Origin: Mytilus edulis
Taxonomy: Eukaryota
Length of the DNA: 64,000 nt
Assembly (NCBI RefSeq): GCF_963676685.1
Contig: NC_092355.1
Location: 43,958,001 to 44,022,000 of the forward strand
Direction: 5' to 3'
Every line of letters starts with the position of its first letter. Positions within the stretch are counted from its first letter, which is position 1. A program made the position numbers. Below, one piece after another: positions 33,001 to 55,600 of this stretch.

Positions 33001-36000
33001 TCATTTAATAACATTGGGTGTATGTTTCATTACAAAACGGTAATATGATTTGCAGACAGCAATATGGCGTCATTCTGAAATTAACCTTCATTTTGAAATA
33101 AAATGTAACACGCATAATGATACGAGCTCCCAGAGTTAAGTGCTCAGGTGAATAAAAGGAAAAATTGATAGAAATCGTGTTTTCATTTTTCTAGCTTATA
33201 AATGTAACTTTCAGTATTAAATGCTTATTTTTGTAATTTACTAGGGTACAATGAACTAACACAATGAAGTATTCTATTTTTTATTATCGTGTCTATCATT
33301 GCTTCATTGGAAGGTTTGGTGAATGGCAATGTTCTGTCCATGTATACATTTTGATCATTTAAAGCTCAAACAAATCGTATTCATTTGTAGGTATTTCGCC
33401 ATGCAGCATAAATGCTTGTCTTAGCTGGACATCTGACACTAATAAGCTTCAACTAATTTGCAAGACTGCATCTCTTTATTTCACTGTTTCCTTTTTCGAT
33501 TACGACGACATAGAAGTTGCGTACTGCCTCAGTCCATTCCCGTCCCCAAAATGTTTTAGTAGTAATGGAGGAAACAGCACAAGCGTGATGCAGAATATAA
33601 TCACAAACGAAACCATTTTAACAATACGGAGAACAGTAGATGAAAGTATAAATGGAGTTTGGTCCTGTCATCACGGTAAAAATGTTCATACAGCAACTGT
33701 TTTGATTAACATTCCAACAACTAAAGGTAAACGAAACATATTTGCAAGATCATAAAAAAAGAAGTTGTATTATTGCATCAGACAACTATCCAACATAGTA
33801 AAAAATGTTTCCCACTGCAACATTCTATAAATTTCTATCCAGACCCTGTAATTCAGAAGTTGTAGTTTTGTTTGCTTATCATATTTGCTTTTCGTTTATT
33901 TTTTATACAAATATACAAAAAAAAATAACTTCGTAGTTTTCTCGTTTGAAATTTTTTACATACGTCATGTTAAGGCATTTTAAATAGTATGGTCATTGTT
34001 AAAGTCCGTACACTGACCAGTAATTACCACCTTATCTGGTATCTGGGACAAAATCTTTCATTGATAATCATTCCACCAATTTTATCCAGGTGACCTTATG
34101 GCCTTTAAAAATAAAAGTATACTGTATAATACGGTGTATAAGGTCTAAATAACTAGATAGGATAACTAAATGTATCCAATATTGAAATATTTGCACTTTG
34201 CCCAAAAGGTATTGGAATATGAAAGATCAAATTGAAATAAATGTAACAAAATTTCTAGAAGTACGTAAGCATGTATTTGCATATTTAGAAGTAACTTTTG
34301 AAAAAAAGAAAAACTAATTGCATATGTATGTTTCAAAGTATGTTGCATATATCTTTCATCTATGCAACATCCTTTTGAAAGTATTTTTTTTATTTCGTTC
34401 GAACTATATGTAGAGGGAGGAAGCTTTCATTATTTTTATATTACAAAAATAATGCTGGAACTAATTGCATTTTAAATTTTTTTCAGTACATAGAGCAACA
34501 TCAGTATTAAATGGTATGTAGTTATATTTGCTTCCAGTTATTAAACTCTAGATATCCTATATTTGCGAATTTCAAACTTCTCGCAAAAAAGGAGGGTCAT
34601 GCTCAAATATCTTCTATTCATTTTTTTGTGTTTTTTCCGAAAATATAATTCGAAATATGCATGATGTACTAATTTACTGAATGTTGTCTGATTTTTCTTG
34701 TTATTTAATGCGTTCTTGATTAAAATTCCCACTTCCATTGGCTACGTTTAGAAGCAGTCAGTGTGAGAATATTTACTATCTTTATGCAAATAAACTCATC
34801 AAAGATACCAGGATTAAAATTTTATATTTACGCCAGACGCGCGTTTCGTCTACAAAAGCAGTAATTTCATTCTTTCTTGCCTTATCAAATTTAAATGAGA
34901 AATGGACGTGTATACATATTTTACACATAACTTTATTATTATTTTTATGTATTACAGACTTTCCCCCTTGGGTGAAGTTACTATGTTACACGTCGATTGG
35001 ATATGCTGTTTTGCTAGTTTTAACACGTATCATTCTTGCATTTATTGGCTCCATTTATGCATCTAAAACTAGTAAAGGTAAGTCCCAACATTTTAAATAA
35101 TTACGAATTTAAAAACATTTACACGAAAACTATGGTAACGTTTTTATTGTAATTTTAATTATTATCAATATCATAATGACGATTGATAAAGATACATACT
35201 TTTTTGAAACAATATTACACAAAACACAACATCGATGTTAATATTTTATGAATACGACATAGTTAATAAATACTCAGGAGTTTTCTTAATGGTTTAAGTT
35301 ATATATGGTAGAAACGCAAAGGATATGAAGTATCCATCCATGACACAAAATCAGTAAATGCACACAAAAAAATACACACAGAAAATGCAGAAATGTCTGT
35401 CTAACGGTGCAATTAACGCAATATTTAACAGTCTACAGACGACTTAAACTCCTGTGGAGGACAATATTTAGTCTTCTGGAGAGTAACGCCACTGTTGTCG
35501 GTTTACATGCACAATTGAAAAGTCAATTGTTCATGAACAATTGAAAGGTCTTTCCTTTTTTCTTTTATTAATTGCCTTCTTAGTTCAAAAATATATGGTT
35601 TCTAAGGACTTTTATGTTCATAACAAGTGGTTGCTAAGGACAAAAATCATTCATAAGGATGAAAATATTACTACAAGTATTAAAATGTCATATGTACTAT
35701 TCATAGTATTTAAAGTTAAAAAGATAAGTGATTGCTAAGGACTTATATGTCGTTGCTAGGGACAAAAATGTCATTTCCAGTATTAAAAATTTCATATTTA
35801 TATTATTCATAGCCTTCTAAGTTCAAAAATATATGGTTGCTAAGGTGTTTTATGTCGTTGCTAGGGACTTGACCTCTAACCTTGACCTAACTTTGAAGAT
35901 CTTATTATGCTGAACATTTTTGCCATTCAAAGTTTCTTTCTATCTCTAACCACTTTTGAGTTAAAAGCAAACAATCATCATTTCGGACCAAAAAAAAACA

Positions 36001-52600: not shown

Positions 52601-55600
52601 TACAATCTTCGTTTTCTCTTTTTGTAGAAAAATCACAGTTAAGTGAGGTGATTTAGTCCATTTTTCAATTGACCATGGGGAACAGCAGTGTACGGCATAG
52701 TAAAATCAAAGATTTTTTAACTGCAATACTTAAGCAAGTATTGCAAGGATTGTGATTAAAGGTTTTGGAAAATATCTTTTGAATTTTGACGAATCAACAT
52801 CTGATTGACACTGCTGGTTAAATATGCCATTATGCGATGTTTCTGAAAATCTTTTACCCTAGCGAGAATGGTGTCAAGAACTTTAGAAGGAATGTTTAGT
52901 TTAACATCTTGACAACCGGCCATACATCGTTCTTTAAAGGTGATGTTGGTGAGATTACGGTATCCAGTATATAATGATGGGAGATTTAGATAGTCCAAAG
53001 GAGAGATGACCGAAATTGTGATTTTCTAAAATCTCCTCTTTCGTGAATAACGAATAGAAAAACTTGGGATTCGCAGTTGGTCTTTTTTTTTGTGATTTAA
53101 AATTCTCTTGTGAGACATCCAACTAATGTTTTTGCAAATGAGTTTGTTTCAGGCTTTTTCTGTTTGAACAATGTACATTTGTCATGATGGAGGGATAATT
53201 CATCCAAACCCTCGTGCTTCTTAAAGGGTTAGATATAAAAACAGGTTTAATCTACCATATAGAAATGCCTGTTTCAAATTTAGAATATAACCGCTATTTC
53301 CCGTTCGTTTAATGTGTTTGGGCTTTTTCTCCTTTGTAAAGGGACTTTCAGCTTTGAATATTTGTTGGGGTTCCTTTTTTTTTTGTTATTTTACTTTATT
53401 ACCTATGTGCTCAATGCACGTCGTAGAGACTTGCGTTTCTGAACGATAGCCAACCACCTTTAAATTTAAAGTCCAGTTTCGGCTTTATTAATTTTCTGGC
53501 ATGGTCCTGAATTGTATCCATCAATAACCTTAGTTTCTTCTTCCAGTTGATGGTTTTGAGTATTTCAGTATTTCGGACCTACTTTGGTTAAGTAGCCAAA
53601 CAGAGGTGTTCTATCATCAAAGTTTATTGAAATCACTACACCCTTGACTAGACAAAAACCTACACCATCGATGTTGACGTTGCATCTGTAAAGGAAAGCT
53701 GTTTTCAAATTTTGAATCCAAGTTTTCTCTTTGTAGTTGATATTGTGTACTCTATACATGCTATATGTGGTCATTTTTCGAATGAAATAGTTTCTCTAAA
53801 ATTCAAATTTTATGGAAAAATGAAATGGTAAAGTGTGTTCAGAAGAAATTAGTTGTTTTCTTGATCATTTACATTGGACTAGTGCTCATCTATCATTTTG
53901 TTTAGCCTTTGTCGTTTTCGACGACATAGATAATTCGCATAGAGACCATTTAGTATTAGGAATGGTCAATTTAATTGTAAATAAATATCAGTAATGAATG
54001 TTTTGCACAATTCGCAGTTTTCACAATTACAGTTAGAATATAAACAACCGTTACCATGAAAGCTGTCGATGAAATCATATATATATCTAAACATTGTACG
54101 ATACAGGTCCAAATATAAATAAATATTGTATTGAAAATAAGGAATCCGAACAAGGACGTTTTAATGACATCTTTTAAAATGAGCATGTGGCACATACAGT
54201 TGTAGCTCAAAAGTCTTTCACCTATCCCAAATTCCGCTGTTTGCATATGAAAGATACTCTGTTGTAACATTGTCAGAAAAACATTTGTTGTCCAATGTTG
54301 ATGAAACTTTTAATGTTGAACTCAAAACTGTGTACAGTTTTCCGTATTATGGTTCTTATGAGATATATTTGTGAGATACCATTACTGGGATATCATTATG
54401 TATAATATATAGAAATAGTTGAAAACTAAGTGGGTTTTTTTCCTATGCAGCCTTGTGATTTGTTTGTCTTTTCAGACATTTCTAAAAATAATGAAAAAAA
54501 TATTTATTTAAAAGAGGGACAACAGATACTAGAGCTACAGACAAACTCATAGATTGAAAATAACTGACAAAGCCATGGCTAAAAATAATTCAATTTGAGC
54601 AATTTTAACAGGTGTGTTTTAGTAGACGAAACGCGCGTCTGGCGTAAACATAAAATTTTATTCCTGGTATCCATGATGAGTTTATTTATATGATATAAAA
54701 GGTGAATTTCCGTTAAGTGAGACGCTTTTGATCTAGGACAGTCTTTCATTTGGATAAGATACAACAATTCAAAAATAATAATAAGTAGCAGATAATTTGA
54801 GAACATTTAAAAACAAAAAAGTATCTTATCATTTTCAAACTATCTGAAAGCATTTTTACCTATTCGTTGTTAATTTCTTTTCAGCAACATTTAGTAGAGC
54901 AAGATTGGATGCATGGACATAGACGTTGGACTGAGGGACAAACGATAGGCAGTATTGACTTTTTTAATTGCGTATAGCAAAGTTGTCATAGATCTAGTTT
55001 TTAAATTATCTGATTGAAGGACACTAGGATAATTTACCATCAATTAGCATCCGTCGTCAGTTATCTTATATCTTCAATTTAAAATCTCTTCGGAAACTAC
55101 TGAACACTTTAATATAAAACTTCACAGACATAATTTCTGAGGGTGTCAAATTTACGGTTTGTAAACTTTATTATAGTCCAAAAACCAACAAGGACGTTTT
55201 TGCTAGATATGATTCATTTGGGTAAAGTAAAAAAAATATGATATTTGTATAACCACAATACATGCAGAAACAGACATTGCATGGGAGAAAAATGTCAAAA
55301 TATATCTCACCTCTTTGTATGCTGAAAATCATAAAATGATAACAATATATACTAAAATGCCAACATGACTAAAAGTTTGAATTGACCAATTATAATAATT
55401 CTGTCCCTTAAATAATGTAATCTAAAGCAGTTTTACCATGTCAACTATAAGAGAGCAACAGAAACAGTCTGTATCAAAAATTATCAGCAAAGCATTATGG
55501 CGAATGATTGATCAATCCATCATGTTATACCTTCTACGGGTTTTAACCCTACCACATGAGTGTCATGTATAAGGACTGGAATCTCATGGCGAGTTTGGCT

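What the first reader, a model, noticed from the sequence alone, without database searches (positions are those of the whole stretch)
33264..54894. Hidden host gene: single Ig-like domain + three TM helices (CD47-like architecture)
Seen: six consecutive GT-AG exons, all phase 1-1 with lengths divisible by 3 (336, 27, 120, 75, 90 and 72 nt), join into one open frame. The order is Ig-like domain, linker, TM1, Cys-rich loop, TM2, short loop, TM3 followed by KRK, then a polar tail ending ...TPEAIQLV. Roughly 280-300 aa are spread over ~20 kb. Established: most Ig-superfamily receptors are single-pass, and Ig plus a multi-pass membrane domain is rare (CD47 has IgV + 5 TM). Inference: a lineage-specific cell-surface receptor family, possibly for immune or self recognition. 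No homology to CD47 is claimed.
Basis: partly seen in the sequence, partly recalled or inferred. Interest (0 to 1): 0.75.

Follow-up and report, generated by a model that had tools for sequence, protein, structure and literature searches.

The report
Mussel Ig-plus-three-helix membrane gene
An apparently intact gene with no matching protein record encodes a surface protein with one antibody-like domain held in the membrane by three helices; it belongs to a large family seen so far only in Mytilus mussels, and nobody knows what the family does.

Summary
Six GT-AG, phase 1-1 exons of 336, 27, 120, 75, 90 and 72 nt lie on the + strand at 33391-40441. A start exon (33264-33318) and a stop exon (50685-50749, ending ...TPEAIQLV) complete a 279-codon frame.

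The 336-nt exon hits 179 cluster representatives (E<=1e-3, best 51% identity). It folds as a V-type Ig sandwich (pLDDT 91.3). Full-length relatives of 230-330 aa share the order signal peptide, Ig, three helices, polar tail. All 13 named records of 30 looked up are uncharacterised Mytilus proteins. No Pfam family matches, and none of my five literature searches turned up a description.

The TM1, TM2 and TM3 exons match the corresponding helices of relatives better than hydropathy-matched decoys. The 27-nt, Cys-rich and tail exons rest on splice signals, phase and composition only. Exon 1 is doubtful: it makes a weak signal peptide, and 27463-27499 is an alternative.

This copy lacks a Cys pair (stalk and TM2-TM3 loop) that most relatives have. 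No protein record matches it, so expression is unproven.

It is not a CD47 family member. The likely role, a surface recognition or adhesion receptor, is inference.

I never joined the exons.

The parts
33264..33318 (+). Proposed signal peptide. Doubtful.
   Evidence: The donor matches 6 of 7 and the junction base G gives the Gly that precedes the first Cys in relatives. The hydrophobic core is weak, with a best 10-residue Kyte-Doolittle mean of 0.52. The intron to the Ig exon would be only 72 nt.
27463..27499 (+). Alternative exon 1: ATG plus 12 codons plus 1 base, donor G|GTAAAT, 5.9 kb upstream of the Ig exon.
   Evidence: Its hydrophobic core is much stronger (best 10-residue mean 2.07). 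The donor matches 6 of 7, and phase and junction base (G) are the same. Only cDNA can choose between the two candidates.
33391..33726 (+). Ig exon, 336 nt, phase 1-1: one V-type Ig-like domain with six cysteines and two N-glycosylation sequons.
   Evidence: phmmer finds 179 hits at E<=1e-3, best 1.5e-26. Family HMM E=2e-41. AF2 pLDDT 91.3, pTM 0.85, nine strands. Foldseek finds 217 PDB matches at E<=1e-3 and the 50 listed are mostly antibody V domains, TM-score 0.56-0.76. The exon keeps all 5 invariant and 9 nearly invariant family columns.
34487..34513 (+). 27-nt linker exon (stalk), phase 1-1.
   Evidence: Strong acceptor (T-run plus CAG) and donor G|GTATGT. No homology support: 245 of 300 decoys score as well. 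The frame also stays open if this exon is skipped.
34958..35077 (+). TM1 exon, 120 nt: end of the stalk, first membrane helix, and a basic stretch on the inner side.
   Evidence: Donor G|GTAAGT matches 7 of 7. 0 of 300 hydropathy-matched decoys reach its score against family C-terminal parts. 5 of its 6 best matches fall on helix 1 of relatives, the best being P0032 at score 62.
36800..36874 (+). Cys-rich exon, 75 nt: 8 Cys in 24 codons. Inner loop between helices 1 and 2.
   Evidence: Good acceptor and donor T|GTAAGT. No sequence support: 47 of 300 decoys reach its top-5 score. With this exon the loop is about 38 residues, close to the family median of 36.
37295..37384 (+). TM2 exon, 90 nt: two Lys, the second helix, and a short outer loop.
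   Evidence: Best acceptor of the set, with 16 of 18 pyrimidines. 2 of 300 decoys reach its top-5 score. 4 of its 6 best matches fall on helix 2 of relatives. It ranks 5th of 4608 ORF pieces against the family HMM, though E=2.8 is not significant.
40370..40441 (+). TM3 exon, 72 nt: third helix with small-xxx-small spacing, ending KRK.
   Evidence: 15 of 18 pyrimidines before the AG, donor G|GTAAAT. 1 of 300 decoys reaches its top-5 score. 4 of its 6 best matches fall on helix 3 of relatives. It ranks 6th of 4608 pieces.
50685..50749 (+). Proposed last exon: 20 polar codons ending ...TPEAIQLV, then TAA at 50747-50749.
   Evidence: Support is marginal: 17 of 300 decoys reach its score. It ranks 2nd of 40 candidate phase-1 terminal exons between 40442 and 57000 against family tails, although it has only half the length of the first. 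5 of its 6 best matches lie in C-terminal tails of relatives. It ends in a hydrophobic residue, as 17 of 31 relatives do.

Best explanation
The locus is a real mussel gene and looks intact. It encodes a membrane glycoprotein of about 279 residues. The order is a short leader, one V-type Ig domain outside the cell, a short stalk, then three membrane helices (N-terminus out, C-terminus in). A Cys-rich inner loop lies between helices 1 and 2, a very short outer loop lies between helices 2 and 3, and a short polar cytoplasmic tail ends in a hydrophobic residue.

It belongs to a large, fast-diverging family that has so far been named only in Mytilus. Within that family it sits on a branch that has no full-length representative.

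Shown here: the exons, the Ig fold, the family, and the family-wide three-helix layout.

Inferred: the protein works as a cell-surface recognition or adhesion receptor. The Ig domain would bind a still unknown partner. The compact three-helix bundle would anchor it and could pair sideways with other membrane proteins. The inner-loop cysteines would be lipid-modified (palmitoylated). The hydrophobic C-terminus would serve as a docking or export signal.

I put gene, family and architecture at about 0.85, and the receptor role at about 0.4. The single confidence value given for this explanation (0.7) weights the shown part more heavily than the inferred role.
For: Exons and open frame.

Family: 179 hits at E<=1e-3 and 90 at E<=1e-10 with the Ig exon alone. 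The exon keeps every invariant family residue.

Fold: pLDDT 91.3 with nine strands, and V-domain matches in the PDB.

Full-length relative P0009 (XP_076083943.1): pLDDT 84, an Ig domain plus helices at 132-161, 170-204 and 213-231, with 10-residue block means mostly about 90 or more across the helices.

Three hydrophobic segments follow the Ig motif in 26 of 47 members at a threshold of 1.6 and in 32 of 53 at 1.5.

The TM1, TM2 and TM3 exons beat hydropathy-matched decoys: 0, 2 and 1 of 300 reach their scores. They also align to the matching helix of relatives.

Topology: among those 32 members the helix 1-2 loop is net positive in 30 (zero in 1), the helix 2-3 loop is a dozen or two residues, and the tail has a median net charge of -3.5. 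In the window, basic residues flank the inner ends of all three helices.

Transcription of relatives: full-length members of 246-344 aa sit on unnamed contigs of only 940-1543 nt. For a gene type spread over 17.5 kb here, that implies spliced RNA (inference).

Tail: a hydrophobic last residue in 17 of 31 relatives, against 20% at the other tail positions.
Against: This particular copy has no transcript or protein record. Word searches with the Ig exon found nothing at 61-195 aa or at 196-2000 aa. The closest hit is 51% identical and is only an exon-length ORF.

The copy lacks both the stalk Cys and the helix 2-3 loop Cys, which 24 of 32 relatives have together. That may mean divergence or decay.

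The 27-nt, Cys-rich and tail exons have no significant homology support, and 40 alternative terminal exons exist.

Phase-1-1 intervals with good splice signals do occur by chance: 10 of 60 nt or more on the - strand.

No Pfam Ig model matches, so the Ig assignment rests on a predicted fold.

Nothing tested here bears on ligand, tissue, palmitoylation or signalling. The decoy counts and the Cys and C-terminus counts treat paralogues as independent, which they are not.
Confidence: 0.7

Rival explanations
1. The copy is a silent or decaying paralogue. Its exons are still open, but the gene is no longer expressed or no longer makes a working surface protein.
For: No close protein or transcript-derived record. 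Weak leader exon. Loss of both cysteines of the stalk/loop pair. The inner loop has a net charge of about +1, against +4 or more in most relatives. Retroelement debris lies in the 10-kb last intron. Family members in a species known for gene presence/absence variation are expected to include dead copies (PMC7653742, passages read).
Against: All eight exons are open with canonical splice sites. The Ig exon keeps 5 of 5 invariant and 9 of 9 nearly invariant residues. Four relatives also lack both cysteines and sit on transcript-sized contigs. Absence from a protein set is weak evidence, because the source genome may simply not be annotated there.
Confidence: 0.2
2. It is a single-pass receptor. 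Only the Ig, stalk and TM1 exons are used, and the downstream 'exons' are chance open intervals in AT-rich DNA.
For: Single-pass members exist in the family, for example P0007 = XP_071122543.1 with one hydrophobic segment after the Ig domain. AT-rich sequence gives many hydrophobic open intervals, and the family HMM scores for the TM2 and TM3 pieces are not significant on their own (E about 2.8).
Against: The TM2 and TM3 exons beat hydropathy-matched decoys (2 and 1 of 300). They align to helices 2 and 3 of relatives in the right order. They have the strongest splice signals of the set and share phase 1-1. The TM1 exon ends at a consensus donor (7 of 7) after only six residues beyond the helix, so the transcript most likely splices onward.
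Confidence: 0.06
3. The architecture is the same, but the job is different. The protein is an accessory or chaperone subunit of a channel, transporter or other membrane complex, as basigin-type Ig proteins are for transporters. It would not be a ligand-binding receptor.
For: The membrane helices are confidently modelled (block means mostly about 90 or more) and carry conserved Gly and Pro positions, which suits helix-helix packing. The FG region of the Ig domain (W-x-C-x-H-G) is conserved rather than hypervariable. The basigin comparison is recalled, not tested.
Against: A family with 179 clusters at 50% identity in one genus, with most Ig surface positions variable (mean entropy 2.59 bits outside strands), looks more like diversified recognition than a housekeeping subunit. 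No partner is known.
Confidence: 0.15
4. It is a mollusc homologue of CD47.
For: The general layout is the same: an N-terminal V-type Ig domain, several helices and a short tail. Weak leads only: Pfam V-set_CD47 at E=0.14 in 1 of 10 relatives; poxvirus OPG166 at rank 2 and squirrelpox CD47 at rank 23 in the viral fold library, both with TM-score 0.29; a CD47 cluster at rank 5 with score 0.85 in the Atlas, below the 0.9 level that the tool treats as more than a lead.
Against: There are three helices, not five. Pfam CD47 (PF04549) is absent and V-set_CD47 is below its cutoff in all 10 relatives scanned. No CD47 chain appears among the 47 PDB sequences matched at E<=10 by the family profile, nor among the 50 listed fold matches of either model.
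Confidence: 0.03

Closest known systems
Uncharacterised Mytilus proteins of the same family, e.g. XP_076083943.1 (M. galloprovincialis LOC143054778, P0009), CAG2218828.1 (M. edulis, P0008), XP_063398898.1 (M. trossulus, P0103), CAC5378538.1 (M. coruscus, P0116)
   Same: The Ig domain has the same six-Cys pattern and the W-x-C-x-H-G strand-F motif. The order is the same: leader, Ig, stalk, three helices, polar tail. The size is the same, 230-330 aa.
   Different: The window's Ig exon is only 27-51% identical to the 76 aligned members. It pairs only with an exon-length ORF, P0001 (support 97/87), so it is a lineage without a full-length record. It lacks the stalk and loop cysteines and has 8 Cys in its inner loop, against a family median of 2.5.
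CD47 and its poxvirus copies (OPG166/A38-type)
   Same: One V-type Ig domain is fused to a multi-pass membrane domain with a short cytoplasmic tail. In CD47 a disulfide links the ectodomain to an outer loop of the membrane domain (recalled, from no call). Here a stalk Cys and a helix 2-3 loop Cys co-occur in 24 of 32 relatives and are jointly absent in 4, which suggests a comparable tether.
   Different: Three helices instead of five. No Pfam CD47 or V-set_CD47 match at cutoff. No sequence match in the PDB profile search. Fold matches are only TM-score 0.29. The window's own copy lacks the Cys pair.
Single-pass V-set Ig-superfamily receptors and antibody variable domains
   Same: The nine-strand V-type sandwich has a Cys in strand B and a Cys in strand F, 69 residues apart. 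The listed solved folds are mostly nanobodies and VH domains (TM-score 0.56-0.76, about 10% identity).
   Different: No Pfam V-set, I-set or ig match even at E<=10. The strand-C Trp is replaced by Phe, with an invariant Trp in the first long strand instead. There are two extra Cys pairs. The anchor has three passes instead of one.
Adenovirus E3 CR1-alpha and herpesvirus UL121-type viral membrane glycoproteins
   Same: They were the nearest clusters by language-model features for relative P0009 (0.87 and 0.86). They are small Ig-like membrane glycoproteins.
   Different: The scores are under 0.9, which the tool calls a lead only. No alignment or fold support was sought beyond, where a duck adenovirus Ig-like protein ranked first with TM-score 0.32 and rmsd 28.6. 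I do not count this as kinship.

Membership tests
Mytilus Ig + three-helix family (unnamed; defined here) | Ig exon or domain matching the family profile | tested here: met
   E=2e-41 against an HMM of 30 full-length members. Best single-sequence hit 1.5e-26.
Mytilus Ig + three-helix family (unnamed; defined here) | Invariant residues of the Ig domain (three Cys, G-x-W-x-C-x-H-G, Trp in the first strand, and others) | tested here: met
   All 5 invariant and all 9 nearly invariant columns of the 77-row alignment are kept in the window's exon.
Mytilus Ig + three-helix family (unnamed; defined here) | Three membrane helices after the Ig domain, in the family's order | tested here: met
   Three separate exons each encode one hydrophobic stretch. 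Decoy test: 0, 2 and 1 of 300. Best matches fall on helices 1, 2 and 3 respectively. The joined protein was not built or tested.
Mytilus Ig + three-helix family (unnamed; defined here) | Cys in the stalk before helix 1 paired with Cys in the helix 2-3 outer loop | tested here: not met
   Both are present in 24 of 32 relatives, both absent in 4, and only one present in 4. The window has Pro at the stalk position and no Cys in the loop. This feature is frequent but not universal, so it does not exclude membership.
Mytilus Ig + three-helix family (unnamed; defined here) | Cleavable signal peptide encoded by a short first exon ending in phase 1 before Gly | tested here: inconclusive
   There are two candidates. 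33264-33318 has a weak hydrophobic core. 27463-27499 has a good core but lies 5.9 kb away. No signal-peptide predictor or cDNA was available.
Ig superfamily, V-set | Beta-sandwich of nine strands (A', B, C, C', C'', D, E, F, G) | tested here: met
   AF2 model with pLDDT 91.3 and nine strands. 217 PDB fold matches at E<=1e-3; the 50 listed are mostly antibody V domains. This is a prediction, not a solved structure.
Ig superfamily, V-set | Cys in strand B and Cys in strand F placed to form the core disulfide | tested here: met
   Cys at exon residues 23 and 92 is present in 100% and 99% of 77 rows and lies in modelled strands 19-25 and 88-94. The bond itself cannot be tested with these tools.
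Ig superfamily, V-set | Match to a curated Ig sequence model (Pfam V-set, I-set, ig, Ig_3) | tested here: not met
   0 families at E<=10 for the exon. None at E<=1 in 10 full-length relatives, apart from V-set_CD47 at E=0.14 in one. UniProt labels some members 'Ig-like domain-containing protein'.
CD47 | CD47 membrane domain of five helices (Pfam PF04549) | tested here: not met
   Three helices in the model of P0009 and three hydrophobic exons here. PF04549 is absent in 10 of 10 relatives scanned.
CD47 | CD47-type V-set domain (Pfam PF08204) | tested here: not met
   Best result E=0.14, 12.4 bits against a cutoff of 21, in 1 of 10 relatives. No CD47 chain appears in the PDB profile search at E<=10 or among the 50 listed fold matches of either model.
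CD47 | Binding to SIRP-alpha-type or thrombospondin-type partners | not testable with these tools
   No partner is known in molluscs, and nothing here addresses it.

The most novel reading that the evidence does not exclude
The family is a diversified self-marker or self/non-self recognition system of mussels. Each individual would show its own set of Ig-plus-three-helix proteins on haemocytes and epithelia. These would be read by other cells much as CD47 is read in vertebrates, and they would vary by gene presence/absence. The system could then bear on how mussels tolerate or reject foreign cells, including transmissible cancer cells. Nothing here contradicts this. What fits it is the size of the family, the fast divergence of the Ig surface, the restriction to one genus, and the CD47-like layout.
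Probability: 0.08. Interest if true: 0.85.

Novelty: new variant of a known kind. Interest (0 to 1): 0.45.

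Why it matters
Ig-superfamily surface proteins are almost always single-pass. CD47 is the textbook exception. Here a second, unrelated solution appears: one V-type Ig domain on a three-helix anchor. It has expanded to at least 179 clusters at 50% identity in one mussel genus, and no Pfam model or published description turned up in my searches.

Mussels are known for resilience to disease, for very high gene presence/absence variation, and for transmissible cancers. 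A large, fast-evolving, surface-exposed family is an obvious candidate for recognition functions in that biology.

For genome annotation, the locus shows that members with short exons spread over long, repeat-filled introns can be missing from protein sets. On its own this locus is one more family member. The value lies in defining the family.

Tried and rejected
- Pfam on the five longer exon translations gave 0 families at E<=10.
- Word-index searches with the Ig exon found none among 50 candidates in the 'longer' range and no candidate in the 'near' range. The same tool with the family alignment returned only 9 proteins, so I did not use it for range.
- The PDB profile search matched only membrane helices of GABA-B and mGlu receptors and transporters (best E=6e-4). 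I take these for hydrophobic composition, not kinship. No Ig or CD47 chain matched.
- Fold search with the full-length relative matched only through its Ig domain. In the viral library the long alignments to poxvirus OPG166 and CD47 had TM-score 0.29, which I rejected as evidence.
- In the ESM Atlas the whole relative gave only leads under 0.9. Its membrane part alone gave no usable hit.
- In-window paralogues: none by tblastn with each exon separately or by the family HMM.
- An extra exon between TM2 and TM3 that would supply the missing loop Cys: none stood out among the phase-1-1 intervals there, and the loop length already fits the family.
- Other terminal exons: 40 candidates were listed. 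50685 ranked 2nd of 40. The first, at 49224, is twice as long and net basic, so I did not prefer it, but I cannot exclude it.
- Homodimer job with two copies of the Ig exon: no verdict, and the tool did not use my alignment. It counts neither for nor against binding.
- Literature: (listings and abstract starts only) showed no description of an Ig-plus-three-helix family in mussels. In PMC7653742 I read passages only. It names 'Ig domain-containing proteins' among families prone to presence/absence variation. Its Data Notes 18-20 are supplements, which are closed, and they may list this family.
Copy number, exon structure of relatives and presence/absence in mussel genomes therefore stayed unchecked. 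No RNA data were available.
- The source species was not determined. 'Mytilus or a close mytilid' is inferred from the named relatives.

Full report
**What is in the sequence**

- 33391-33726 (336 nt)
- 34487-34513 (27 nt)
- 34958-35077 (120 nt)
- 36800-36874 (75 nt)
- 37295-37384 (90 nt)
- 40370-40441 (72 nt)

Reading the DNA confirms pyrimidine-rich acceptors and near-consensus donors at each. An ATG exon at 33264-33318 ends in phase 1 at G|GTGAAT. The tail ending ...TPEAIQLV is at 50685-50749, with TAA at 50747-50749.

The seven junction codons, read one at a time, give G, V, D, D, F, V, G. The frame is therefore open for 279 codons. The window contains no N.

I never assembled, searched or folded the joined protein.

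**Is it more than chance?**

The window is 29-41% G+C, so hydrophobic open intervals are common. I applied three thresholds: at least 13 of 18 pyrimidines, C/T at -3, and a donor matching at least 5 of 7. The + strand then holds 11 phase-1-1 intervals, 6 of them 60 nt or longer, and 3 of those 6 are the Cys, TM2 and TM3 exons. The - strand holds 14, of which 10 are 60 nt or longer. Splice signals alone are thus suggestive, not decisive.

The decisive evidence is homology. The 111-residue translation of the 336-nt exon found 179 proteins at E<=1e-3 and 90 at E<=1e-10 among 1.84 billion cluster representatives. The best hit was 1.5e-26 at 51% identity. An HMM of 30 full-length members, run against all 4608 open pieces of the six frames, hit that exon at E=2e-41 and nothing else significantly.

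**The family**

Members of about 230-330 aa share one plan: a hydrophobic leader, the Ig-like domain, a short stalk, three hydrophobic segments and a polar, mostly acidic tail.
- A crude hydropathy count finds exactly three segments after the Ig motif in 26 of 47 members of 228-345 aa at threshold 1.6. Nine have two, two have one, one has four and nine have none. Five of those nine lacked my motif pattern and were counted as zero by construction.
- At threshold 1.5 the count is 32 of 53 members of 228 aa or more that carry the motif.
- Single-pass variants exist, for example P0007.

Of 30 representatives looked up, 13 carry names, and all 13 are Mytilus: M. edulis, M. galloprovincialis, M. coruscus and M. 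trossulus. They are labelled 'uncharacterized', 'unnamed protein product' or 'Ig-like domain-containing protein'. One more M. edulis record appeared.

The unnamed full-length members lie on contigs of 940-1543 nt. A gene of this type occupies 17.5 kb here, so I infer these are spliced transcripts and that relatives with this architecture are expressed.

No Pfam family reaches its cutoff in 10 full-length members or in the window's exons.

**Structure**

With a 77-row alignment, the window's Ig exon modelled at pLDDT 91.3 and pTM 0.85 as nine strands. Foldseek gave 217 PDB matches at E<=1e-3. The 50 listed are mostly nanobodies and antibody VH/Fv domains, with TM-score 0.56-0.76 at about 10% identity.

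Six cysteines are conserved. Residues 23 and 92 lie in the strands that correspond to B and F. The others are 45 and 54, and 4 and 9. The strand-F motif W-x-C-x-H-G and a sequon at residues 72-74 are nearly invariant. The window keeps all 5 invariant and 9 nearly invariant columns.

Relative P0009 (XP_076083943.1) modelled at pLDDT 84 as the same Ig domain plus three long helices at 132-161, 170-204 and 213-231. The 10-residue block means are mostly about 90 or more across them. Its PDB matches come only through the Ig domain.

**Are the membrane exons homologous?**

I scored each exon's translation by local alignment against the post-Ig parts of 53 family members. I compared each with 300 peptides of equal length and similar hydropathy drawn from the window's six frames. 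The number of decoys reaching the top-5 score was:

| Exon | Decoys reaching the score (of 300) |
|---|---|
| TM1 | 0 (best score 62; decoy best scores 37.3 +/- 4.7) |
| TM2 | 2 |
| TM3 | 1 |
| Tail | 17 |
| Cys-rich | 47 |
| 27-nt linker | 245 |

The best matches are colinear:
- 5 of 6 for TM1 fall on helix 1.
- 4 of 6 for TM2 fall on helix 2.
- 4 of 6 for TM3 fall on helix 3.
- 5 of 6 for the tail fall in C-terminal tails.

So the three helix exons are supported independently of the splice signals. The linker and the Cys-rich exon are not. The tail is marginal.

Indirect support for the Cys-rich exon: with it, the inner loop is about 38 residues, against a family median of 36.

Indirect support for the tail: it ranks 2nd of 40 candidate terminal exons despite its short length. 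It also ends in a hydrophobic residue, as 17 of 31 relatives do, against 20% at other tail positions (binomial p about 2e-5, with near-duplicate paralogues included).

**Topology and family features**

Among the 32 three-segment relatives, the helix 1-2 loop is net positive in 30 and zero in 1. The helix 2-3 loop is short. The tail has a median charge of -3.5 and usually begins with basic residues. By the positive-inside rule (established knowledge), the Ig domain and the 2-3 loop are outside, and the 1-2 loop and the tail are inside. The window's exons fit this, with Lys/Arg at the inner ends of all three helices.

A Cys just before helix 1 and a Cys in the 2-3 loop occur together in 24 of 32 relatives. 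Both are absent in 4, only the first is present in 1 and only the second in 3. Inspection shows that those 3 have a Cys just outside my scoring window. I infer an extracellular disulfide that ties the stalk to the helix bundle. The four double losses come from at least two lineages.

The window's copy has neither Cys. It has Pro at the stalk position in an otherwise well-aligned stretch. That fits joint loss, but it also marks this copy as atypical.

The window's inner loop has 8 Cys in 24 codons, against a family median of 2.5 per loop. Overall the family loop is only mildly Cys-enriched (6.7% against 4.6%). 'Cys-rich loop' therefore describes this copy and some paralogues. Palmitoylation of these cysteines is my inference.

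**Weak points of the gene model**

An alternative at 27463-27499 has a good core (2.07), and an equal donor and phase, but needs a 5.9-kb intron.
- The 10-kb last intron holds a reverse-transcriptase fragment.
- The 5.8-billion protein set holds no record sharing enough words with the Ig exon, at any length from 61 to 2000 aa.
- In a tree of 77 Ig domains the window pairs only with P0001, an exon-length ORF at 51% identity (support 97/87).

The copy is therefore truly unrecorded, and its expression is unproven.

**Comparison with known families**

It is an Ig-superfamily protein by predicted fold and Cys pattern, but it escapes all Pfam Ig models.

It resembles CD47 in layout only:
- It has three helices, not five.
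- Pfam CD47 is absent, and V-set_CD47 reaches only E=0.14 in 1 of 10 relatives.
- No CD47 chain appears in the PDB profile search or among the 50 listed fold matches of either model.
- Poxvirus CD47-type proteins match at TM-score 0.29.
- A CD47 cluster appears at rank 5 with score 0.85 in the Atlas.

These leads are too weak to claim kinship.

**How it most likely works**

The following is inference. The protein would be a surface glycoprotein that presents one V-type Ig domain close to the membrane on a compact three-helix anchor. In most paralogues a disulfide would stiffen the link between stalk and bundle. Lipid-modified cysteines on the inner loop and a hydrophobic C-terminus would serve sorting or scaffold binding.

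The size of the family, the variability of most Ig surface positions (2.59 bits outside strands against 1.82 in strands) and the restriction to one genus point to recognition or adhesion. I give that about 0.4. An accessory-subunit role gets about 0.15.

That this copy is a silent or decaying paralogue I put at about 0.2.

**Novelty**

Five literature searches (listings and abstract starts only) found no description of such a family.

I rate the finding a new variant of a known kind: an Ig-superfamily surface protein on an unusual three-pass anchor. It is present in databases only as uncharacterised predictions.

**What stayed unchecked**

The following are therefore all open: copy number, exon plan of relatives, presence/absence variation, selection, expression, and the true first and last exons.

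Noticed in passing
window 7465-11638 (-): Remnant of a Pao/BEL-type LTR retrotransposon. Its open pieces match Peptidase_A17 (E=1.6e-37) and RVT_1 above cutoff; the integrase core (rve) and the integrase zinc-binding domain match just below their cutoffs. The pieces are split over several frames, so the copy is broken.
   Followed up: partly
window 11715-18664 (+): Two tandem copies of a 3467-nt unit (11715-15197 and 15182-18664), 99.7% identical, directly beside the retrotransposon remnant. They carry identical 127-codon open frames with no Pfam match. This could be a recent duplication or an assembly artefact.
   Followed up: partly
window 20544-25304 (-): Fragments of a LINE-like element. 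Two pieces match RVT_1 (E=8e-15 and 1e-17). There is a weak endonuclease-reverse transcriptase match, below cutoff. The pieces lie in different frames.
   Followed up: partly
window 41386-42598 (-): A reverse-transcriptase fragment (RVT_1, E=9e-11) lies inside the proposed 10-kb last intron of the gene, on the opposite strand.
   Followed up: partly
window about 43620-43700: A simple dinucleotide-type repeat that reads as a run of Tyr-Ile codons in both strands' open frames.
   Followed up: no
proteins P0007 and P0036 (family members, not in the window): The family's Ig domain also occurs on other chassis. P0007 (M. edulis XP_071122543.1) has a single membrane helix. P0036 (M. coruscus CAC5382471.1, 327 aa) has no hydrophobic segment by my count and a Tyr-rich acidic tail. 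The gene models may be incomplete.
   Followed up: no
protein P0127 (family hit, not in the window): An M. edulis record that matches the Ig exon (E=1.2e-7) is labelled 'Integrase zinc-binding domain-containing protein'. It is probably a gene model that merges a family exon with transposon sequence.
   Followed up: no
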